The notes beneath the pieces are model-generated. The model searched no databases, was not told the DNA's origin, and saw nothing but the letters and a program-made list of their open reading frames with translations. From a virus, in the IMG/VR virus record IMGVR_UViG_3300006802_000087, positions 1-64,000 of that record: DNA of 64,000 nucleotides, one strand, 5' to 3'. A program made the position numbers and the translations under genes. Below, piece after piece: positions 1 through 46,245 of the stretch (positions within the stretch are counted from its first letter, which is position 1; every line of letters begins with the position of its first letter).

Positions 1-1374
1 ATTAAAGAGTCAGCGAGTAGAACTGCCGAAGAAGCAGGTGATGGAACTACAACAGCAACCGTCCTCGCCCAGTATATTTATAATGAAGGCCTTAAATACA
101 AAACTGCCGGGTTTGATGTTGCACTTCTAAAAGAAGGTATTGAATATGCACGCGATCAAGTTATTGATAATATCAGATCACAAGCATCTGAGGTAGGTTC
201 ACAAAAAGATCTTCTTAAAGTTGCAACAATATCAGCAAATGGTGAAGAAGAGATAGCAAAATTAATTGTTAATGCAATTGAAGCCGCAGGTCCAGACGGG
301 CATGTTATTGTAGAAGAGGCAAAGGGATTTAGCAGTTCCCTCACAGTTGTCGAAGGCTTCCAAATGGAACGAGGCTTTTTGTCTCCTTATTTTGTAACAG
401 ATAAAAATAAAATGGTTACAGAATTTAAAAAACCATTGATACTAATGGCTGACAGAAGTTTTACATCTATTCGAGAATTAATGAAACCACTCGAAATAGC
501 GTTGGAAATGGGAAGACCTATTGTGGTTATCGCCAATGAAATTGAAGGTGATGCAATGCAAGGTTTGGTTTTAAATAGAACAAAAGGGTCACTTCAAGTT
601 GCTGCGATTAAGTCACCAGGTTTTGGTGGGACAAGACATGACATGTTATTAGATCTAGAGTCGATTATCGGCGGTAAAGTAATAGATAGTGGTTTTGACA
701 TGACATCTTTTGAAATGGAAATGTTTGGTACATGTAAAAAAATTGTTATCCAAAAGTCTAAAACACTTATCATTAATGATGATAAAAAAACAGACACTGC
801 GCAAGACAGAATGAAAACAATTAAAGAACGATTAAATTATCCTGGGCTCACTAACGAAGAGAGGGCAGTTTTACGTTATCGACTACAACAACTTTCTGGA
901 GGTATTGCGATTTTAAGAGTAGGTGCAGCAACTGAATCAGAACTTATTGAAAGATATGACAGAGTTGATGATGCTCTCCATGCAACGCGTGCTGCAATTG
1001 AAGAAGGCGTGCTGCCAGGCGGAGGGATTGCTTTGTACGCAGCTTCAGACAATATCAAGGATATTACAAAGGACATGTTAGAAGAGGATTTTAAGACAGG
1101 ATATCAGCTCTTAAAGAATGCATGCGCGCAACCCTTTAGACAAATTTTAACGAATGCTGGGTTAAATCATACAAAAATAATGTCAAATATAAGATCAAAA
1201 AATGCAACAGGCTATGATGTAAGAAACAAAAGATTTGGAGATATGTTTGAATTAGGTGTGCTAGACCCTGCAAAAGTATCTCGTTGTGCGCTTGAAAATG
1301 CTGTGTCAGCTTCAACAATGTTGTTGCTTGCAGATTGCTCACTTATTGAAGTTAAAACAAATTTATCAGAATAG
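1..1374 (+). CDS. groEL: Chaperonin GroEL (5' end outside window)
   Basis: Frame from base 1 reads IKESASRTAEEAGDGTTTATVLA and is in frame with the 364..1374 ORF (RGFLSPYFVTD, KSPGFG, DDALHATRAAIEEGVLPGGG, GVLDPAKV). No GGM tail. Confidence 0.97.
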   Translation: MKESASRTAEEAGDGTTTATVLAQYIYNEGLKYKTAGFDVALLKEGIEYARDQVIDNIRSQASEVGSQKDLLKVATISANGEEEIAKLIVNAIEAAGPDGHVIVEEAKGFSSSLTVVEGFQMERGFLSPYFVTDKNKMVTEFKKPLILMADRSFTSIRELMKPLEIALEMGRPIVVIANEIEGDAMQGLVLNRTKGSLQVAAIKSPGFGGTRHDMLLDLESIIGGKVIDSGFDMTSFEMEMFGTCKKIVIQKSKTLIINDDKKTDTAQDRMKTIKERLNYPGLTNEERAVLRYRLQQLSGGIAILRVGAATESELIERYDRVDDALHATRAAIEEGVLPGGGIALYAASDNIKDITKDMLEEDFKTGYQLLKNACAQPFRQILTNAGLNHTKIMSNIRSKNATGYDVRNKRFGDMFELGVLDPAKVSRCALENAVSASTMLLLADCSLIEVKTNLSE

Positions 1375-1404
1375 TTATACATCGTATTGTTAATGTAGGT
1401 AAAT

Positions 1405-1734
1405 ATGTCTGAATATAAACTTCAAAGAAAAATAGCTACTGCCATTGTCACACTCAAAATTGAAAATGAAACCCATGTTCCAGACTTAATGACAAGGATT
1501 CGAATATTACCAGGCGTGGCTGTAGTTGGTCAAAAAGATAAGGTTGCAAGATTTTCAGATGGTGATGGAAGACTTAAGTTAAGCATAAAGTTTTTACCAC
1601 AATCTGAAGAGATATACTCGAGTCTTAAAGACATGTCCGGTCTAGTTAAAAAGTTACCTGGTGTAAAATCAATAGGTATTGAGAGTTTTAATAAGCGAAC
1701 AATTACAATGCAAGGTAAAAAAATAATTTTTTAA
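1405..1734 (+). CDS. Hypothetical protein
   Basis: 109 aa ORF; no GroES motifs. Confidence 0.6.
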   Translation: MSEYKLQRKIATAIVTLKIENETHVPDLMTRIRILPGVAVVGQKDKVARFSDGDGRLKLSIKFLPQSEEIYSSLKDMSGLVKKLPGVKSIGIESFNKRTITMQGKKIIF

Positions 1735-1790
1735 TGTAATTCTTGTTTTTTTTGGCTTATAATACTATTAAGCTTTCAAAGGAGGACATT

Positions 1791-2195
1791 ATGAGCTTAT
1801 ATTATAGTAAAAGTGATGATTTATTCAATACTTTTTTTGGAGATTCTAAACTTAAGTTTGGCAATTATTCAAGTTCAAAATTTAACGTGTATACAAAAAA
1901 GAACTCGACCGGTATTTTTATTGAAGTGTTGCTTCCTGGTTTTTCGAAGTCTGATATTTCATTAAAAACAAATGGTGAGACATTTACAATTGAATGTAAA
2001 AACTCAACAGTATCTAATGATCGAGAATATACTACACAACAATTTAATTCTCTAGAGAGATTTAAAAGAACATGGAACGTTCCAAAAAATTTTGACGTTG
2101 AAAACATTACAGCGTCGTATGATTCAGGCATTTTGACATTGTTTTTGCCAGAGTTTAAAAGAACTAGTTCATCTCGAACTATTAAAATTGATTAA
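1791..2195 (+). CDS. Small heat shock protein (Hsp20/alpha-crystallin)
   Basis: LPGFSKSDI, FKRTWNVP, ITASYDSGILTLFLP; GGAGG RBS before ATG 1791. Confidence 0.92.
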   Translation: MSLYYSKSDDLFNTFFGDSKLKFGNYSSSKFNVYTKKNSTGIFIEVLLPGFSKSDISLKTNGETFTIECKNSTVSNDREYTTQQFNSLERFKRTWNVPKNFDVENITASYDSGILTLFLPEFKRTSSSRTIKID

Positions 2196-2237
2196 ATTAA
2201 TTAATTTTTAAGTATAATTGCGTGGTTTGTTAAAAAA

Positions 2238-2265
2238 TGTAACGGCCGCGCAATTATTGTATAAT
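2238..2265 (+). promoter_or_regulatory. TGTAAC-N16-TATAAT promoter of the sigma gene; its -35 lies inside a 13-bp inverted repeat (2214-2257)
   Basis: tgtaac 2238, tataat 2260; arms ataattgcgtggt / gccgcgcaattat. Confidence 0.75.
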
Positions 2266-2304: not shown

Positions 2305-3039
2305 ATGTCACAAAACTTAGAAAGCTATTTTAGTTCAATAAAAAACAATACACGGCTATTAACAAAAGAAGAAGAAATATCTTTGGCAAAAAGAATTGAA
2401 AAAGGAGATAAACGCGCAAGAGATATTATGATTGAATCAAACCTTAGACTAGCAATATCTATTGCAAAAAAATATGCAAAATACGGTGGTAGTTTAGAAG
2501 ACTTAATTCAGGAAAGTAATATTGGTTTAATAACTGCAGTTGATAAATTCGATTGGCGAAAAGGTAATAAATTTTCTACTTATGCAACATGGTGGATTCG
2601 ACAGGCAGTTACACGTAGCTTGACGTCTGAAAGCACACTTTTAAAAGTTCCTTCTCATACACTCGCAAATTCTAGAAAGATTTGGCAATTTAAACAAGAT
2701 TACAGTGAAGAATTCGGTCGAGAACCTTCTATTGATGAAATCTGTACAGCCTTTGATCTTTCAGAAAAACATGTTAAAAATGCCATGGCTTCCTCTAAAG
2801 CAAAATTTACCTCTTCTTTAGATATGCAAATTGGTGATGAAGGAAACAGGACTTTAGCTGACATCATTCCAGATAACAATCAATCCATAGAAGAAATTAT
2901 AGACAATAAAAAAATAAAAGAATGTATATTAAACGCCCTTAAATCTTTGACAAAAAGAGAAGAACTAGTCTTAAGGTTAAGATTTGGTCTTGATGACTTA
3001 ACTGATGATGATGATAATATTTGCACAATTAACAACTAA
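2305..3039 (+). CDS. Sigma70-family factor (regions 1.2, 2, 3, 4.1; lacks region 4.2 HTH)
   Basis: LLTKEEEISLAKRI, NLRLAISIAKKY, DLIQESNIGLITAVDKFD, FSTYATWWIRQA, LTKREELVLRLRFGL then stop. Confidence 0.93.
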   Translation: MSQNLESYFSSIKNNTRLLTKEEEISLAKRIEKGDKRARDIMIESNLRLAISIAKKYAKYGGSLEDLIQESNIGLITAVDKFDWRKGNKFSTYATWWIRQAVTRSLTSESTLLKVPSHTLANSRKIWQFKQDYSEEFGREPSIDEICTAFDLSEKHVKNAMASSKAKFTSSLDMQIGDEGNRTLADIIPDNNQSIEEIIDNKKIKECILNALKSLTKREELVLRLRFGLDDLTDDDDNICTINN

Positions 3040-3065
3040 CTTATAATAACAAAAAAGGAGAAAAC

Positions 3066-3338
3066 ATGTCTATGCCTAAAGGATTTAAAAGCGAAACAGG
3101 ATATGGTACATCAAAACAATTTGAAGGGAAAACCTATCATGAAATTGCCAAAATTATGAATGAAGCCGGTTTTAAAATGAATCACTCAACAGCAAGAAAT
3201 CTATTTGTAAATGCTTTAATCAAGGTTGCTGATGAAATCACAACTCTTTACAATCAAGATCATAAAAAAGAAGATCTTAAAAAATTAGCAATCAATCCAG
3301 ATTTTCAAGAGTCAGTAAGGGATTTTATGGATACTTAG
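3066..3338 (+). CDS. Sigma region-4.2-like HTH protein
   Basis: GKTYHEIAKIMNEAGFKMNHSTARNLFVNALIKVA resembles sigma4.2; own AAGGAG RBS. Confidence 0.65.
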   Translation: MSMPKGFKSETGYGTSKQFEGKTYHEIAKIMNEAGFKMNHSTARNLFVNALIKVADEITTLYNQDHKKEDLKKLAINPDFQESVRDFMDT

Positions 3339-3342
3339 TATT

Positions 3343-3594
3343 ATGACCTTTAAAACAACATCCAACATTATCATTAATGATTTAAATTTTAGAACATCAG
3401 TTTTAGAATCACTAGATTGGGATGAGCTAGTATGCAATGATTTTTTTATATACTTAGAACAGAGTCTAGAAAACAACCTCTCAATTGAGGAATTGTTTTC
3501 AGACATTATAAGTCTTTATAATAAAAATCTGGCAATAATTATCAAGGATGTATTTGAAGAAGTATATTATAATTACTCAGAGGAGAAGTCTTGA
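3343..3594 (+). CDS. Small acidic hypothetical protein
   Basis: 83 aa ORF tightly packed after the HTH gene. Confidence 0.6.
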   Translation: MTFKTTSNIIINDLNFRTSVLESLDWDELVCNDFFIYLEQSLENNLSIEELFSDIISLYNKNLAIIIKDVFEEVYYNYSEEKS

Positions 3595-3887
3595 TAACAC
3601 TAGAAAGTATACTAAAAAGAAATAAAAAAACTTTATTGTCGTTTATTCAAAAAAATAAATTAACGTCTTATGATGATTTAATACAATATTGTAAACGACG
3701 AAAATTTATTCCTTGCAAAGAGGAAGATTATAATAAAGTTTTAGATGGTAAAAATGAAAAACAAAGATCTGATTGGAATAAGAAGAGCACTGGCGGGGAA
3801 ACTAGTAAAGCACAAAAAAAGCGAAAAGCTAGGAATAGTTCTAAAAGAAAACAAGATACACCCAAATTACCTGATAGTAATGTCTAA
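3591..3887 (+). CDS. Basic hypothetical protein
   Basis: GAGGAG RBS before TTG start. Confidence 0.55.
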   Translation: MITLESILKRNKKTLLSFIQKNKLTSYDDLIQYCKRRKFIPCKEEDYNKVLDGKNEKQRSDWNKKSTGGETSKAQKKRKARNSSKRKQDTPKLPDSNV

Positions 3888-7429: not shown

Positions 7430-8431
7430 ATGCGCGCTAAAAAAGGTGAATGGTTTTCTCTTAAATGGGAACCAAGAGACTATTACGAGAAAGAATCTTA
7501 TAGACAACTCAAAAACTGTCCTAAGTTTGTTTGTGCCGAAAAAGATACAGAATCGATCACCCAAGAAATAGAAGAGTTATTCCCAAATTTACGAATTACA
7601 TCAGCAAACCTAGCCGTTGTTTTTGTTAAAGAAAAATCAGGCCTAAAGGTGCCTACGCATTATATGCCTGGTGAGTTTATGCCAGGTGACAATCCAAAAT
7701 ACGATAATTGGTTGACAGACTACTATACAGTTGATAGTGATTTTACTAATCAACTAAAAAATAGAAATACTGTTCAGCAAAAAACAATTTACCTTGAGCA
7801 CACTTCTAAGGTGATTAGACATGATATGCATAGCGGAATTAATACCTACATACCTCGTGGTCTTAAGGTGTTATTAGAAAAACTAGATGAAGATACAATT
7901 AAAAATCTTAAACTTAGAATTCCTTTAAAGCTTCTGGAAGAAGGTCTTAAGCATGCACAGCAAGTTTATAAAGGAGTTTATGCATTTACCAACCTAGTTA
8001 AAATAAAACCACAGGTCGAAAAAAATGTTTATAATTTAAAAGAAATTTTAGAAGAGTTTTTAGAAAAGTCTGCCTATAGGAAATATGTTAAAATTGAAGA
8101 CTTGCCTGAAAAAGAAGTTAATCCCGCGTTGTTTTGTATTGCTATTGACAATTTTATTAAGAATGGCGTGACATATAACGAAAGCAAAGAAAAATCTGTT
8201 AGAGTCTATATGAAATACAAAAATGTTCTTTGTATTGAGGACAATGGAATAGGTATGACTCAATATGAATACGACCTGCAATCTTTACCCTATATGAAAA
8301 CCGACATTGGAGACGAAGAAGCTTCTTTGGGAATGGGAATTAATATTGCAAATGCCATTATTGAGGAACATGGTTGGACTATACAGGTCAATAAACTAGA
8401 AAGAGGTACATCAATAGAGGTAGTTTTATGA
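7430..8431 (+). CDS. Soluble sensor histidine kinase
   Basis: H-box RHDMHSG, N-box AIDNFIKNG, G1 EDNGIGM, altered G2 SLGMG. Confidence 0.88.
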   Translation: MRAKKGEWFSLKWEPRDYYEKESYRQLKNCPKFVCAEKDTESITQEIEELFPNLRITSANLAVVFVKEKSGLKVPTHYMPGEFMPGDNPKYDNWLTDYYTVDSDFTNQLKNRNTVQQKTIYLEHTSKVIRHDMHSGINTYIPRGLKVLLEKLDEDTIKNLKLRIPLKLLEEGLKHAQQVYKGVYAFTNLVKIKPQVEKNVYNLKEILEEFLEKSAYRKYVKIEDLPEKEVNPALFCIAIDNFIKNGVTYNESKEKSVRVYMKYKNVLCIEDNGIGMTQYEYDLQSLPYMKTDIGDEEASLGMGINIANAIIEEHGWTIQVNKLERGTSIEVVL

Positions 8432-8616
8432 TAAAAAAGATATTTAAGTATATTAAGTGGTTTTTTGAACCATCACCGCATGATAGAAAATGTGCTGAAG
8501 CGTGTAAAAAAATTCAATCACTAAAAATAGAGTATGTAAAAAACCCAAGCGAGACATTAAAAAATGAAATTAAAAGACTTGAAAAGTTATGTGAAGAAAA
8601 ATATACTGACGGATAG
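8428..8616 (+). CDS. Small hypothetical protein within the kinase cluster
   Basis: ATGA overlap with kinase 1; GAGG RBS. Confidence 0.5.
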   Translation: MIKKIFKYIKWFFEPSPHDRKCAEACKKIQSLKIEYVKNPSETLKNEIKRLEKLCEEKYTDG

Positions 8617-9520
8617 AGTTAGCGCTCAATCTAAAGTTTGTCTTTCTTTAGCAATAACAATAATGGGAATGTTTTTTTGTGTCCAAAGTCTTATTGTCTT
8701 TAAAGTTATTAAGTCATCATATTTGACTGCGCTATTTGGTTATGCATGCATTTTGCTGTTTACTCCGCCTTTTGCGATGTTTGTTAAAACATTTATAGAT
8801 AGAGTAAACAGCAATGAAATAAAACTTCTTGAAGAAGTGATGGAAAAAAATACTTATTTGGAGCATGCTGCTAAAATTCTTAGACATGATATGCACAGCG
8901 GAATTAACACCTATATACCTCGAGGACTTAAGTCTTTAGAGCGAAGGTTAGATAAAAGCTTAATTAAAGAAAAAAAGCTAGAGTCACCTTTGAAACTCTT
9001 GCGAGAAGGCTTAGCCCATTCACAACAAGTATATAGAGGTGTTTATGAATTTACTAACCTTGTTAGAAAAGATGCGACACTTCAAATAATACCAGTTAAC
9101 ATAAAAGAGGCACTAGAGAGTTATCTAAAAAGAACATCATACAAAGATCAGGTCTTAATTGAAAGTTTGCCTGAAGTTTGCATTAATGAGTCTCTTTTTT
9201 GTACAGCTATTGATAATCTCATAAGAAACGGTCTTAAATATAACGACAGTGATACTAAATGGGTTAAAATAAAAATGTTAGATAAAGACACAATGGCCAT
9301 CATTGACAATGGAAGAGGTATGTCTCAAAAAGATTTTGACAAATTAATGTTGCCTTATTCGAGAAAAAAGAATCAAAAAGAAGAAGGGACGGGATTAGGG
9401 CTTAATATTTGCGTAGCAATTTTAAACGAACATGGTTTTAGTATTTCTTGCGAAAAACTAGAGCAAGGAACAATGATAAGGATAAATTTCAATGATAAAT
9501 TCTATACTTTTAGTGGATGA
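8564..9520 (+). CDS. Membrane histidine kinase (2 TM)
   Basis: Two TM segments, RHDMHSG, AIDNLIRNGLKYN, DNGRGM, GTGLGL. Confidence 0.92.
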   Translation: MKLKDLKSYVKKNILTDRVSAQSKVCLSLAITIMGMFFCVQSLIVFKVIKSSYLTALFGYACILLFTPPFAMFVKTFIDRVNSNEIKLLEEVMEKNTYLEHAAKILRHDMHSGINTYIPRGLKSLERRLDKSLIKEKKLESPLKLLREGLAHSQQVYRGVYEFTNLVRKDATLQIIPVNIKEALESYLKRTSYKDQVLIESLPEVCINESLFCTAIDNLIRNGLKYNDSDTKWVKIKMLDKDTMAIIDNGRGMSQKDFDKLMLPYSRKKNQKEEGTGLGLNICVAILNEHGFSISCEKLEQGTMIRINFNDKFYTFSG

Positions 9521-9923
9521 CGAAAACTTATTTCATCTTGTCTTTGAGGACGCTTGTTCTCTTTTAGATATTACACTTAATCTCGAGTCGTTAACGTCAG
9601 CCGACGAAGCTGCTAAGCTTTTTGATCAGTGGCAAGGCAAACCTGATCTTAAACCTGATTGTGTATTTGTTGATCTTAATATAATTGGTTCATCATTTAA
9701 CGGAATTGAACTAGTTCGTAAAATCAATTACGAATACGGCAATGGCGTGGTTGTTGGAATTATCTCATCGTCAGCAGACAAAGAAGAGATGGGGAAAGCA
9801 ATACAGGCAGGTGCTCAATTTTGGATTGTTAAGTCTGATGATATTGAGCCACGTCTAGAAGAGTTTAAAAAAGATTACGATGGCTATGTCAACAGAACAA
9901 ATTCATGGAAAGTATATAAATGA
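9492..9923 (+). CDS. Single-domain response regulator (receiver only)
   Basis: ILLVDDE, VFVDLNI (phospho-Asp), ISSS, IVKS. Confidence 0.92.
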   Translation: MINSILLVDDENLFHLVFEDACSLLDITLNLESLTSADEAAKLFDQWQGKPDLKPDCVFVDLNIIGSSFNGIELVRKINYEYGNGVVVGIISSSADKEEMGKAIQAGAQFWIVKSDDIEPRLEEFKKDYDGYVNRTNSWKVYK

Positions 9924-13966: not shown

Positions 13967-13994
13967 TGTAATATCAATTAAAACTATATATAAT
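13967..13994 (+). promoter_or_regulatory. TGTAAT-N16-TATAAT promoter of tmRNA
   Basis: Motif ends 10 nt before the tmRNA 5' end. Confidence 0.7.
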
Positions 13995-14004
13995 AAAACT
14001 ATAC

Positions 14005-14392
14005 GGGCCCGTAATGGCTTCGACGGAATAGAATCAAGGGGAGAATGCAAGCAGGGAAGATACGCCCTTAACAGTTCAAATTTTATAGTTGCAAATAATA
14101 ACGCACACTTCGATTCAGTAGCAGTAGCTGCTTAATTGACGCCGGTATCTCTTCCGGTGCAAAACAAGAGGTTAGTCAGATGGGTGAGACGAAAAATTAT
14201 AAGGGAGTCTAGCGGACTTTGCCGACACCTAAAATGGTTATCCACGTGGTATGTGGTGGAACTCAAGGTTACCTAGAGTTGGTGGAAAGAGGTGGCTATC
14301 CTTGTTATCAGGAGAAAAACGATAACTAAGCTTGTGAACGACTCAAACTAAGACTATTGCGGACGCGGGTTCGACTCCCGCCGGGTCCACCA
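14005..14392 (+). ncRNA. ssrA: tmRNA
   Basis: 5' GGGCCCG..TTCGAC; 3' T-arm GGTTCGACTCC and CGGGTCC-ACCA; G3:U70 pair; tag ORF 14091-14135 ANNNAHFDSVAVAA*. Confidence 0.96.
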
Positions 14393-45237: not shown

Positions 45238-45265
45238 TGTAATTGCTAAAATATGTTGGTATAAT
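45238..45265 (+). promoter_or_regulatory. TGTAAT-N16-TATAAT promoter of the tRNA cluster
   Basis: Motif 45 nt upstream of tRNA-Leu. Confidence 0.7.
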
Positions 45266-45309
45266 ATAAACATATAAATAAGATCTTTTAAATTGTTAGA
45301 TTAATAAAA

Positions 45310-45393
45310 GCCTTGATGGTGAAATTGGTAGACACGCAAGACTTAAAATCTTGTTTCCGCTAGGAAGTACCGGTTCGATTCCGGTTCAAGGCA
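45310..45393 (+). tRNA. tRNA-Leu(UAA), CCA not encoded
   Basis: GCCTTGA/TCAAGGC acceptor, CAAGA-CTTAAAA-TCTTG, long variable arm, GGTTCGATTCC. Confidence 0.93.
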
Positions 45394-45397
45394 TTAT

Positions 45398-45474
45398 GCA
45401 CCCGTAGCTCAGCTGGATAGAGCATCCGCCTTCTAAGCGGACGGTCACAGGTTCGAATCCTGTCGGGTGTACCA
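45398..45474 (+). tRNA. tRNA-Arg(UCU)
   Basis: TCCGC-CTTCTAA-GCGGA; ends ACCA. Confidence 0.96.
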
Positions 45475-45666
45475 CTTTGATATAACCGGGAATACGCTCC
45501 TCGTCCCCAGTTTTTATTTATGAGATGTTAGGACTATCTCGGTTATATCTTTTTTTAAAGAATGCAAGGGGGCTTCCTGAGGCGGGTCAGTCTTAAACGA
45601 TGGTAATCCCAGGTGTACCGATAATCGCGAAGATATGTCGGAGATATCACGCCCTTGCTTCTATGA

Positions 45667-45743
45667 TGCGGGATGGAGCAGTTGGTTAGCTTGTCGGGCT
45701 CATAACCCGAAGGTCGGGGGTTCGAATCCCTCTCCCGCACCCA
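45667..45743 (+). tRNA. Initiator-type tRNA-Met(CAU)
   Basis: TCGGG-CTCATAA-CCCGA with three consecutive G:C pairs; ends CCA. Confidence 0.93.
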
Positions 45744-45774
45744 TTTTAAACAAACGAGTAACAAGAGAAAACAA

Positions 45775-46056
45775 ATGAGAATTTTAATATTACTATCTTA
45801 TATAGGCTGTACACAGCACGTTCATACAAAAGACATTAACAAAGTCAATGTGGGAATGTCATATGATACCACAACACGAATCTTAGGGGAGCCTAATAAA
45901 GTGGTAAATAATTCTATAAGGGTATATCAAGGTACAGAAACTGCATACAATCATGAAGTTTTATTGTACAGATCACACTCAAATGCATCTGAGTCTCTTA
46001 GAGATTGTTATCTGATATTTACAGATAAAGTTTTAAGAGAAGTGAATTGTTTTTAA
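45775..46056 (+). CDS. Small lipoprotein, SmpA/OmlA(BamE)-like
   Basis: LLSYIGC; KVNVGMSYDTTTRILGEP. Confidence 0.65.
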   Translation: MRILILLSYIGCTQHVHTKDINKVNVGMSYDTTTRILGEPNKVVNNSIRVYQGTETAYNHEVLLYRSHSNASESLRDCYLIFTDKVLREVNCF

Positions 46057-46064
46057 TGTTATTT

Positions 46065-46137
46065 GGGCACTTGGCGCAGCGGTTAGCGCAGGGAACTCAT
46101 AATTCTTTGGTCGTAGGTTCAAATCCTACAGTGCCCA
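46065..46137 (+). tRNA. tRNA with CAU anticodon, probably Ile2 (lysidine, reads AUA)
   Basis: GGGCACT/AGTGCCC acceptor; CTCATAAT..TTGGTCG body resembles ileX. Confidence 0.85.
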
Positions 46138-46245
46138 CTTTACTATCAATGCTCTGGGTTAGGTTAAAACTGCCGGTCGGATTAGGGCATTGATATAAAA
46201 CTCCTTGGTTAATCCGACCGGCACCCTTTTTAATTGGAGATAAAA

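What the first reader, a model, noticed from the sequence alone, without database searches (positions are those of the whole stretch)
2305..3338. Split sigma70: the -35-reading region 4.2 appears to be a separate gene with a rewired recognition helix
Seen: the sigma has an RpoD-like region 2.3/2.4 (FSTYATWWIRQA) and region 4.1 (LTKREELVLRLRFGL), then stops in an acidic tail where the 4.2 HTH should start. A 90-aa ORF begins 26 nt later, in another frame with its own AAGGAG RBS, and carries the missing piece: GKTYHEIAKIM..NHSTARNLFVNALIKV versus canonical TLEEVG..VTRERIRQIEAKALRKL. Known: sigma4.2 reads -35 and binds the beta flap; T4 divides these roles between gp55 and gp33. Inference: this is a two-part sigma. 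The core alone could read -10-only promoters; with the partner it could read the non-canonical TGTAAC -35 found 33 times in this window.
Basis: partly seen in the sequence, partly recalled or inferred. Interest (0 to 1): 0.88.

Follow-up and report, generated by a model that had tools for sequence, protein, structure and literature searches.

The report
Phage sigma factor split inside domain 4
A large uncultured water phage, like hundreds of its relatives, encodes a host-like RNA polymerase sigma factor that stops just before its -35-reading helix-turn-helix; the next gene is a small helix-turn-helix protein predicted to complete that domain as a second subunit, although relatives also carry a free-standing canonical copy of the missing piece elsewhere in the genome.

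Summary
The 244-aa RpoD-like sigma (2305-3039) has regions 1.2, 2, 3 and 4.1. It ends where E. coli sigma70 residue 570 would be, so region 4.2 is missing. A 90-aa ORF (3066-3338) follows after 26 nt, in another frame, with its own AAGGAG.

It is not a frameshift. In 78 of the 80 best sigma relatives in IMG/VR the sigma is truncated at the same point and the small gene comes next, in all three frame relations and often overlapping. Three independent assemblies bridge the junction without indels. No fused form was found.

The small protein has no significant sequence match to sigma region 4. Its predicted fold is a helix-turn-helix. In a read-through model it packs on the sigma's 4.1 helices and forms a complete sigma-4 domain (Z 8.5-8.9 to solved sigma-4).

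Complication: every near-complete relative also encodes an unlinked Cys-rich mini-protein with a canonical 4.2 HTH. The true -35 reader is therefore not settled.

The TGTAAC-N16-TATAAT promoters are real (28 against 0.9 expected), but which holoenzyme reads them is untested.

This scan has found the same system before on other DNA. I rate it a new variant of the known two-subunit sigma factors.

The parts
2238..2265 (+). Promoter of the sigma operon: TGTAAC, 16-nt spacer, TATAAT. It is preceded by an A-tract. The -35 box lies in the loop of an inverted repeat (arms 2216-2225 and 2246-2255, 9 of 10 complementary).
   Evidence: Read directly. It is one of 28 such sites against 0.86 expected. The same element stands upstream of the sigma gene in L001-L006 and L010.
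2305..3039 (+). RpoD-like sigma factor with regions 1.2, 2, 3 and 4.1 but no region 4.2 (244 aa). RBS AAGGAG at 2289-2294.
   Evidence: Pfam r1_2, r2 and r3 above cut-off. PHROG 351, sigma factor, E 1e-63. Best NCBIfam models are RpoD and RpoS. Aligns to E. coli sigma70 354-570.
2935..3003 (+). Region 4.1 remnant (residues 211-233, LTKREELVLRLRFGL). These are the two helices that in a whole sigma pack against the 4.2 HTH.
   Evidence: Sigma70_r4 positions 1-22 of 50. R226, F227 and G228 are invariant in 41 relatives.
2992..3036 (+). Acidic C-terminal tail (DDLTDDDDNICTINN) in place of region 4.2.
   Evidence: The tail is 6-56 aa long and net negative in 56 of 64 distinct relatives. A small hydrophobic motif (NIYEI, EFNV or NFPIT) recurs in it.
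3040..3065 (+). Intergenic spacer of 26 nt with RBS AAGGAG at 3055-3060.
   Evidence: In relatives the spacing runs from -23 to +38 nt, most often -4, -1 or 0 to 4, which fits translational coupling.
3066..3338 (+). 90-aa partner protein (here 'A'). It has an invariant, predicted-disordered N-terminal motif (MPKGFK..GY.T.K), a helix-turn-helix, and two C-terminal helices with an invariant P.FQ motif.
   Evidence: 296 homologues of 90-107 aa. 306 clusters at 50% identity, nearly all stand-alone. AF2 model with pLDDT 80.5. One copy per genome.
3132..3230 (+). Helix-turn-helix of the partner (residues 23-55). Helix 24-33 is followed by a turn with a 5-residue insertion and then the recognition helix, which starts at KMNHSTARN.
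   Evidence: hhalign maps residues 21-61 onto sigma 4.2, with R44 at the place of sigma70 R588; P = 0.078, not significant. KMNHSTARN is unchanged in 20 of the 21 related loci (KMNHSTAMN in L021). In the read-through model this stretch superposes on the 4.2 part of solved sigma-4 domains.
1405..1734 (+). Conserved 109-aa ORF upstream of the sigma gene. It has a weak ACT-like Pfam hit and may belong to the same module.
   Evidence: tblastn finds it upstream of the sigma gene in 19 of 21 loci at 35-79% identity. Pfam ACT_4 E 6e-4, below cut-off.

Best explanation
The phage makes a two-subunit sigma factor that is cut inside domain 4. The 244-aa body carries everything needed to bind core RNA polymerase and read the -10 element (regions 1.2-3), plus the two 4.1 helices. 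The co-translated 90-aa protein supplies the helix-turn-helix, which packs on those helices. The -35-reading, beta-flap-binding domain is therefore assembled from two polypeptides.

The partner's conserved basic N-terminus and the sigma's acidic tail probably hold the halves together. The composite factor then directs host core polymerase to phage promoters of the type AAAA-TGTAAC-N16-TATAAT.

Shown here:
- the truncation
- the strict linkage of the two genes
- the conservation of both
- the reality of the promoter class

Inferred:
- that the two proteins bind
- that the partner contacts DNA
- that this pair, rather than the host sigma or the unlinked Cys-rich region-4 protein, reads TGTAAC
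For: 1. The truncation lies exactly at the 4.1/4.2 boundary.

2. Linkage. In 21 of 23 loci found through the small protein, and in 78 of the 80 best loci found through the sigma, a truncated sigma is directly followed by the small gene. Sigma identity falls to 34%. All three frame offsets occur, and 19 of 64 distinct pairs overlap by 1 or 4 nt. The only two full-length sigmas in the set lack the small gene.

3. No fused form. The top 150 of 306 clusters are nearly all stand-alone proteins of about 85-110 aa, and the search among longer proteins found nothing.

4. Fold of the partner alone. It is an HTH plus two helices. The best structural neighbours are weak (Z about 4) but almost all LuxR/GerE-type HTH domains, aligned from their second helix onward.

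5. Read-through model. I folded L009 from region 4.1, with the stop read as Q, through the partner (pLDDT 67.5, pTM 0.64). All listed Foldseek hits are sigma factors or isolated sigma region 4 (2h27_D TM 0.82, rmsd 2.1). VIA-align gives AlgU Z 8.9 (rmsd 1.8, 77 aa) and sigmaE region 4 on -35 DNA Z 8.5 (rmsd 1.6, 69 of 69 aa, model range 16-126, so across the break).

6. Co-fold of sigma residues 190-244 with the partner. ipSAE is 0.50 against a best control of 0.00, which the tool calls 'weak support'. That mark was reached by 58 of 80 solved complexes and 2 of 110 mismatched pairs, but scores of 0.60 or under by only 7 of those 80 and by both mismatches. The runs share at least 93% of contacts and the partner's pLDDT is at least 66. 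Sigma-4 is a solved fold, so the pass may come from memory.

7. Sub-threshold sequence hints all point the same way. Sigma70_r4_2 is the Pfam family hit by most family members (7 of 102, best E 0.006). hhalign places the HTH on 4.2.

8. The partner lacks any equivalent of the 4.1 helices, and the sigma keeps exactly those, so the two are complementary.
Against: - There is no significant sequence similarity between the partner and region 4.2: Pfam, PHROG and NCBIfam give nothing, the PDB profile search finds no sigma, and hhalign gives P = 0.078.
- The partner shows no profile similarity to the phage lineage's own canonical 4.2 protein.
- The alignment to 4.2 needs a 5-residue insertion in the HTH turn.
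- The read-through model rests on six sequences and on a fold that AlphaFold knows well. The co-fold result is only 'weak support'.
- All four relatives that are at least 90% complete, and 9 of 15 large relatives, encode elsewhere a small Cys-rich protein with a Pfam-significant Sigma70_r4 match over the 4.2 part. This could be the real missing piece.
- The recognition helix is invariant, while the sixth base of the -35 box varies between clades.
- The sigma operon itself depends on a TGTAAC promoter, so another holoenzyme must read that class first.
- There are no expression or binding data.
Confidence: 0.5

Rival explanations
1. The unlinked Cys-rich mini-protein ('B') is the true trans-acting region 4.2 of the truncated sigma. 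B is about 81 aa, has four invariant Cys, and carries the HTH TLQDIGDIFKVTRMRICQIEK. On this reading the adjacent 90-aa protein is an accessory: a tether, a beta-flap co-factor in the manner of T4 gp33, or a regulator of assembly.
For: - B has a significant Sigma70_r4 match over positions 18-49 (38 bits in G006, 31-40 bits in eight other relatives' small ORFs).
- It is present in all 4 sigma-bearing records that are at least 90% complete.
- Conversely, the three most complete B-bearing records (61-84% complete) all carry the 90-aa gene.
- Its HTH is nearly identical to RpoD 4.2, changed only at the equivalents of sigma70 E585 (M) and R588 (C). That is what a relocated fission product with altered specificity would look like.
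Against: - B is never adjacent to the sigma gene. In G006 it lies about 165 kb away.
- B seems to carry its own equivalent of the second 4.1 helix (NCCILLL or NCVILAS before the HTH; in G012 the Pfam match starts at position 6). It therefore does not need the sigma's 4.1 helices, and the retained 4.1 would be redundant.
- B was not found in the 75.8 kb held for this genome, nor in G005, which is 70% complete. Incompleteness may explain both.
- This reading leaves the strict coupling and complementary shape of the adjacent protein unexplained.
Confidence: 0.2
2. The truncated sigma works alone, relying on the perfect extended TATAATATAA -10 region as sigma70 lacking region 4.2 can. The 90-aa protein is an ordinary DNA-binding regulator of LuxR/GerE-like shape that merely shares the operon. 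It could be a repressor or activator acting at the TGTAAC box or at the inverted repeat over the sigma promoter.
For: - The partner alone resembles LuxR/GerE HTH domains (Z about 4) and has no significant sigma-4 sequence signal.
- A diverged homologue without the N-terminal motif stands in L022, with no sigma region 2 on that 62-kb contig.
- The -10 element of the promoter class is a perfect consensus.
- The sigma promoter's -35 box sits in the loop of a conserved inverted repeat that could be an operator.
Against: - LuxR/GerE domains need a first helix, which the partner lacks and the sigma retains.
- The pairing is near-absolute (78 of 80) with frequent start/stop overlap, over divergence down to 34% identity. 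That is more than operon sharing usually gives.
- The -35 box is as conserved as the -10 (T 1.00, G 0.96, T 0.96, A 1.00, A 1.00), so something reads it in the promoter complex.
- The L022 contig is only 41% complete.
Confidence: 0.15
3. The break is an artefact or recent decay: a sequencing frameshift, or a pseudogene with a chance downstream ORF.
For: None beyond the first impression that a sigma ends early.
Against: - The same break is found in 78 of 80 relatives with different spacings and frames.
- Both products are strongly conserved, with 21 invariant columns among 39 partner sequences.
- Contigs of three other runs bridge the junction with no differences.
Confidence: 0.01

Closest known systems
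Two-subunit (split) sigma factors: B. subtilis SigO-RsoA (YvrI-YvrHa) and Tn916 Sig7-Sig8, as summarised in bioRxiv 10.64898/2026.10.01.756105
   Same: Promoter recognition is shared by two separately encoded, adjacent, co-expressed polypeptides that together make up the sigma domains.
   Different: - Those pairs are ECF-like and are divided between domains: sigma-2 on one protein and sigma-4 on the other.
- Here a primary-like sigma with regions 1.2-3 is cut inside domain 4, between the 4.1 helices and the 4.2 HTH.
- The second piece has no recognisable sigma sequence.
- Association with RNAP has not been tested here.
Phage T4 gp55 plus gp33 (and SPO1 gp34 plus gp33) late-transcription factors
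   Same: A phage-encoded sigma lacking a functional -35 reader works with a small second phage protein.
   Different: - From my own knowledge, not tested here: gp55 is a minimal sigma-2-like protein; gp33 binds the beta flap and the sliding clamp and does not read DNA; T4 late promoters have no -35 element.
- Here the sigma is RpoD-like, the partner is an HTH, and the promoters have a strongly conserved -35 box.
- The partner matched no PHROG family at E <= 1.
Sigma-70 region 4 and LuxR/GerE-type HTH domains (for example E. coli sigmaE region 4 on -35 DNA, 2h27; GerE, 1fse)
   Same: The composite of the sigma's 4.1 helices and the partner's HTH superposes on whole sigma-4 domains (Z 8.5-8.9, rmsd 1.6-1.8 A). 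With the partner's C-terminal helices it also superposes on LuxR-type domains (Z about 8).
   Different: - The domain is built from two chains.
- There is a 5-residue insertion in the turn.
- The recognition residues differ: H-S-T-A-R-N in place of R-E-R-I-R-Q.
- No Pfam match above cut-off.
Free-standing Cys-rich sigma region-4 mini-proteins of the same phage lineage (L197:1375-1620 and about 245 IMG/VR stretches)
   Same: A small phage protein carrying a -35-type HTH, conserved throughout the lineage that has the truncated sigma.
   Different: - It has a canonical 4.2 sequence that is Pfam-significant, a four-Cys N-terminus, and is unlinked and monocistronic.
- It has no profile similarity to the 90-aa partner.
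- Its function is unknown.

Membership tests
Sigma-70 family, primary-like (RpoD/RpoS type): the 244-aa protein | Region 2 (core binding, -10 recognition) | tested here: met
   PF04542, 73.6 bits against a cut-off of 24. The FSTYATWWIRQA block is invariant in 41 relatives.
Sigma-70 family, primary-like (RpoD/RpoS type): the 244-aa protein | Regions 1.2 and 3 | tested here: met
   PF00140, 35.7 bits, and PF04539, 43.1 bits, both above cut-off.
Sigma-70 family, primary-like (RpoD/RpoS type): the 244-aa protein | Complete region 4, including the 4.2 helix-turn-helix | tested here: not met
   Only positions 1-22 of 50 of PF04545 match, at 20.6 bits against a cut-off of 24.1. The alignment to E. 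coli sigma70 ends at residue 570 of 613.
Sigma70_r4 / Sigma70_r4_2 (Pfam): the 90-aa protein | Profile score above the curated cut-off | tested here: not met
   The window's protein has no hit at E <= 1. Of 102 family members, 7 hit r4_2 (best E 0.0056) and 2 hit r4, all below cut-off. hhalign against a 6-sequence sigma-4 profile gives P = 0.078.
Sigma70_r4 / Sigma70_r4_2 (Pfam): the 90-aa protein | Sigma-4 fold: HTH packed on the two 4.1 helices | tested here: inconclusive
   Met only in a predicted read-through model (Z 8.5-8.9, rmsd 1.6-1.8 A over 69-77 aa). The model rests on a shallow alignment and a fold AlphaFold knows well. The partner alone gives Z about 4 to LuxR-type HTH domains.
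Two-subunit sigma factors (SigO-RsoA, Sig7-Sig8) | Two adjacent genes whose products together contain the sigma domains | tested here: met
   Adjacent in 78 of 80 and in 21 of 23 loci. However, the division lies inside sigma-4 and not between sigma-2 and sigma-4.
Two-subunit sigma factors (SigO-RsoA, Sig7-Sig8) | Both subunits associate with RNA polymerase and both are required for initiation | not testable with these tools
   This needs pull-downs and in vitro transcription. The co-fold of the two phage proteins gave only weak support: 0.50 against a best control of 0.00.
T4 gp33-like co-activators | Sequence membership in a known phage family | tested here: not met
   The 90-aa protein matched no PHROG family at E <= 1. 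tblastn found no match in 50,697 phage records.
LuxR/GerE-type HTH: the 90-aa protein | Four-helix domain with its own first scaffold helix, and a Pfam GerE-type match | tested here: not met
   No such Pfam hit. The model has no helix before the HTH: residues 1-20 are predicted disordered. The structural likeness starts at the second helix of LuxR domains.

The most novel reading that the evidence does not exclude
The truncated sigma is a universal body that can dock either of two trans-acting -35 modules. One is the co-translated 90-aa HTH protein. The other is the unlinked four-Cys protein with a canonical but re-specified 4.2 helix (TRMRICQ). The phage could then switch or gate promoter specificity, perhaps by metal or redox state, by exchanging a quarter of a sigma factor rather than the whole factor.
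Probability: 0.13. Interest if true: 0.85.

Novelty: new variant of a known kind. Interest (0 to 1): 0.64.

Why it matters
Sigma factors are the textbook single-chain promoter readers. The few natural two-subunit sigmas known to me are divided between domains. A primary-like sigma cut inside its -35-reading domain would show that domain 4 can assemble in trans. It is conserved across hundreds of large aquatic phages (more than 580 IMG/VR stretches).

It would give a natural model for modular promoter specificity and for phage takeover of host RNA polymerase. It would also offer small orthogonal parts for synthetic transcription control.

It assigns a testable function to two sizeable protein families that have no annotation: the 90-aa partner, and possibly the Cys-rich region-4 mini-protein. 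It also links them to a sharply defined promoter class.

Tried and rejected
- Profile searches of the small-protein family against PDB sequences found no sigma or HTH protein. The hits were designed repeats, uteroglobin fusions and GerD.
- Foldseek on the small protein alone: nothing with E <= 0.001 in PDB. In BFVD the only convincing row is an uncharacterised 72-aa phage protein.
- hhalign of the small family against a sigma-4 profile: the expected register, but P = 0.078. Against the Cys-rich region-4 family: no alignment.
- Search for fused forms among longer proteins: none. The tool itself rates this as weak evidence.
- ESM Atlas: the protein's own unnamed viral clusters, plus one 71-aa viral cluster with Sigma70_r4 on 19% of members at 0.87. 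This is a lead only.
- Exact-pattern scan of IMG/VR for AAATGTAAC-N16-TATAATAT: 85 stretches, nearly all single matches on unrelated contigs. It did not help decide whether phages without the sigma pair use this promoter.
- Covariation between the recognition helix and the -35 box cannot be done. The helix is invariant, while the box varies only at its sixth base, or more widely upstream of the sigma gene in distant clades.
- A second promoter class: none was visible among the 78 exact TATAAT sites of the window. TTGTTA-N16-TATAAT is not enriched. I first read the promoter of the Cys-rich gene as host-like and withdrew that, because it fits TGTTAA-N16-TATAAT, the same register as the main class.
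- Expression: no RNA holder is listed among the public runs.
- Nearest cultured phages: none are close. The helicase is at most 37% identical to any phage record. The host is not identified.
Full report
**What is there**

The window is part of a 75.8-kb IMG/VR virus record that CheckV estimates at 37% complete, so the phage is of roughly 200 kb. It has 33-37% G+C over most of its length. Helicase, ligase and virion proteins are recognisable, but no cultured phage is close.

ORF 2305..3039 encodes a 244-aa sigma factor. Pfam regions 1.2, 2 and 3 are above cut-off. Of region 4 only model positions 1-22 of 50 match, at residues 211-233. The best NCBIfam models are RpoD and RpoS. phmmer aligns residues 20-234 with E. 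coli sigma70 354-570 of 613. The protein therefore stops at the 4.1/4.2 boundary and ends in an acidic tail.

After 26 nt, in another frame and behind AAGGAG, ORF 3066..3338 encodes 90 aa with no Pfam, PHROG or NCBIfam family.

**It is neither an error nor decay**

Both proteins have hundreds of metagenomic homologues. Sigma relatives down to 60% identity are nearly all 241-267 aa, and relatives of the small protein are 90-107 aa.

In 21 of 23 IMG/VR loci found through the small protein, a truncated sigma lies directly upstream. Sigma identity runs from 74% down to 34%, and the spacing from -62 to +38 nt. In the G+C-rich outlier L021 the spacing is 150 nt, with one inserted ORF.

In the reciprocal search, 78 of the 80 best sigma loci have a sigma ending 6-56 residues after the RFG motif, followed by the small gene (hmmsearch E 1e-28 to 1e-39). 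The two exceptions have a full canonical 4.2 and no small gene.

Among 64 distinct pairs all three frame relations occur. Nineteen pairs overlap by 1 or 4 nt and many others are 0-4 nt apart, which is the signature of translational coupling.

A profile search of 1.8 billion representatives found 306 clusters. The 150 listed are nearly all stand-alone proteins of about 85-110 aa, and none is the C-terminus of a sigma. A search restricted to longer proteins found nothing. Contigs from three other sequencing runs cover the junction without a single difference.

**Is the small protein the missing region 4.2?**

Sequence says 'perhaps':
- Profile searches of PDB sequences find no sigma.
However, P is only 0.078.
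- Scanned one by one, the Pfam family hit by most family members is Sigma70_r4_2, but that is only 7 of 102, all below cut-off.

Structure says more:
- The AlphaFold model of the protein alone (pLDDT 80.5) has a disordered, yet invariant, N-terminal 20 residues. Helix 24-33, a long helix 40-61 and two short helices follow.
- Its neighbours are weak (Z about 4) but nearly all LuxR/GerE-type HTH domains, aligned from their second helix onward. The protein therefore looks like such a domain without its first helix.
- The sigma retains precisely that helix.

In several relatives the two genes are in frame and separated by a stop codon plus one further codon. I folded such a natural read-through: L009 from region 4.1, with the stop read as Q, through the partner, using six sequences. 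The model has pLDDT 67.5 and pTM 0.64, and the linker is disordered.
- Every listed Foldseek hit is a sigma factor or an isolated sigma region 4. TM normalised to the target is 0.74-0.82 and rmsd 2.1-2.4 A for 4g6d_A, 2h27_D and 1ku7_A. Probabilities are 0.9-0.98, but E-values are 0.3-2.
- VIA-align against 48,161 chains ranks AlgU (Z 8.9, rmsd 1.8 A, 77 aa), E. coli sigmaE region 4 on -35 DNA (Z 8.5, rmsd 1.6 A, 69 of 69 aa, model range 16-126, so spanning the break) and WhiG (Z 8.3). Dozens of sigma-4 and LuxR-type domains follow.

An independent co-fold of sigma residues 190-244 with the partner scored 0.50 against 0.00 for the best of three controls. The tool rates this as weak support. 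That mark was reached by 58 of 80 solved complexes and 2 of 110 mismatches, but scores of 0.60 or under by only 7 of the 80 and by both mismatches. The runs agree in at least 93% of contacts, and the partner's pLDDT is at least 66.

Both predictions may lean on the many solved sigma-4 structures. They show compatibility, not binding.

**The complication**

I tested this.
- In G006, the 237-kb record with the closest sigma (74% identity), an 81-aa ORF about 165 kb from the sigma gene matches Sigma70_r4 positions 18-49 at 38.4 bits, above cut-off.
- It has four invariant cysteines followed by TLQDIGDIFKVTRMRICQIEK. That is RpoD 4.2 changed at the equivalents of E585 and R588.
- Such a protein is present in all four sigma-bearing records that are at least 90% complete, and in 9 of 15 large ones.
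- Conversely, the three most complete records found through it (61-84% complete) all carry the 90-aa gene.
- It is not in the 75.8 kb held for this genome, which is no evidence of absence.
- It shows no profile similarity to the 90-aa family.

The lineage therefore conserves three players: the sigma body, the adjacent HTH protein, and an unlinked canonical region-4 mini-protein.

I still favour the adjacent protein as the obligate partner, for three reasons:
- It is co-translated with the sigma body.
- It lacks exactly what the sigma retains.
- The Cys-rich protein seems to carry its own equivalent of the second 4.1 helix.

The assignment is not settled, and the two small proteins may be alternative modules.

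**Promoters**

AAAA-TGTAAC-N16-TATAAT-ATAA is a real promoter class. There are 28 sites with at most one mismatch, all on the + strand, against 0.86 expected. Nearly all (26 of 28) lie roughly 30-60 nt upstream of an ORF with a ribosome-binding site; two precede RNA genes.

The class serves:
- the sigma operon (2238)
- the tmRNA (13967)
- the tRNA cluster (45238)
- replication-region genes
- an array of some 20 small genes at 49.6-63.4 kb

The class is enriched and strand-biased in five relatives, including distant clades, where the consensus is TGTAA plus a variable sixth base.

Read as xTGTAA-N17, the box keeps the T and G of TTGACA.

I saw no second promoter class. The sigma gene itself depends on this class. 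The host holoenzyme must therefore be able to fire these promoters at least weakly. A plausible logic is a positive-feedback takeover, in which the phage factor outcompetes host sigma and prefers TGTAAC over TTGACA.

**Comparison with what is known**

Split sigmas are known. According to bioRxiv 10.64898/2026.10.01.756105 they include SPO1 gp33/gp34, T4 gp55/gp33, B. subtilis SigO-RsoA and Tn916 Sig7-Sig8. According to the same preprint, SigO-RsoA and Sig7-Sig8 together supply regions 2 and 4 from two proteins; to my knowledge none of these factors is cut inside a domain.

Here a primary-like sigma is cut within domain 4, and the second piece is not recognisable by sequence. My literature searches found no description of this arrangement, though the library is incomplete. 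Within this scan the same system has been reported several times on other genomes, with similar verdicts.

I class it as a new variant of a known kind.

Noticed in passing
L197:1375-1620 (G006, a close relative); not found in the 75.8 kb held for this genome: A family of free-standing proteins of about 80 aa. They have four invariant Cys (C3, C14, C19, C31, with a CRYW motif) and an invariant canonical sigma 4.2 HTH changed to TRMRICQIE. About 245 IMG/VR stretches carry it. It is present in all four near-complete relatives, is unlinked to the sigma gene, and has its own TGTTAA-N16-TATAAT promoter.
   Followed up: partly
window 1405-1734: A 109-aa ORF with a weak ACT-like Pfam hit is conserved just upstream of the sigma gene in 19 of 21 related loci, at 35-79% identity. 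That is as conserved as the sigma itself, so it may belong to the same transcription module.
   Followed up: partly
window 2216-2255: An inverted repeat (AATTGCGTGG and CCGCGCAATT, 9 of 10 complementary) brackets the -35 box of the sigma promoter. Analogous repeats flank the box in L001-L005 and L010. It could be an operator for autoregulation or the terminator of the upstream hsp20 gene.
   Followed up: partly
window 13967-14392: A phage-encoded one-piece tmRNA (Rfam RF00023, 103 bits) with tag peptide ANNNAHFDSVAVAA, directly behind a TGTAAT-N16-TATAAT promoter.
   Followed up: partly
window 45238-46138: A cluster of four tRNA genes (Leu-taa, Arg-tct and two Met-cat) behind a promoter of the same class.
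   Followed up: no
window 1-2195: GroEL (open at the window's 5' end) and an Hsp20 family protein stand just upstream of the sigma operon on the same strand. Hsp20 is kept there in only 6 of 21 related loci.
   Followed up: partly
window 7430-9923: Two paralogous histidine-kinase-like proteins (PHROG 857 and 10912) followed by a stand-alone response-regulator receiver (PF00072). This looks like a phage-borne two-component set without a DNA-binding output.
   Followed up: no
window 3591-3887 and L021:3276-3665: A small protein with a conserved ..YDD(L/V)..YC.. core and a lysine-rich tail lies downstream of the sigma pair in 10 of 21 loci, including the most distant, G+C-rich one.
   Followed up: partly
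L022:2953-3216: A diverged homologue of the 90-aa protein that lacks the MPKGFK..GY.T N-terminal motif. It stands on a 62-kb contig (41% complete) with no sigma region 2. The N-terminal motif may therefore be the sigma-tethering part.
   Followed up: partly
L008, L009, L011, L013, L014, L017 (junctions near 2995-3003): In several relatives the sigma stop codon, one further codon and the partner's ATG are in the same frame. Stop-codon read-through would give a fused sigma there. Other relatives use other frames, so this is not a general feature.
   Followed up: partly
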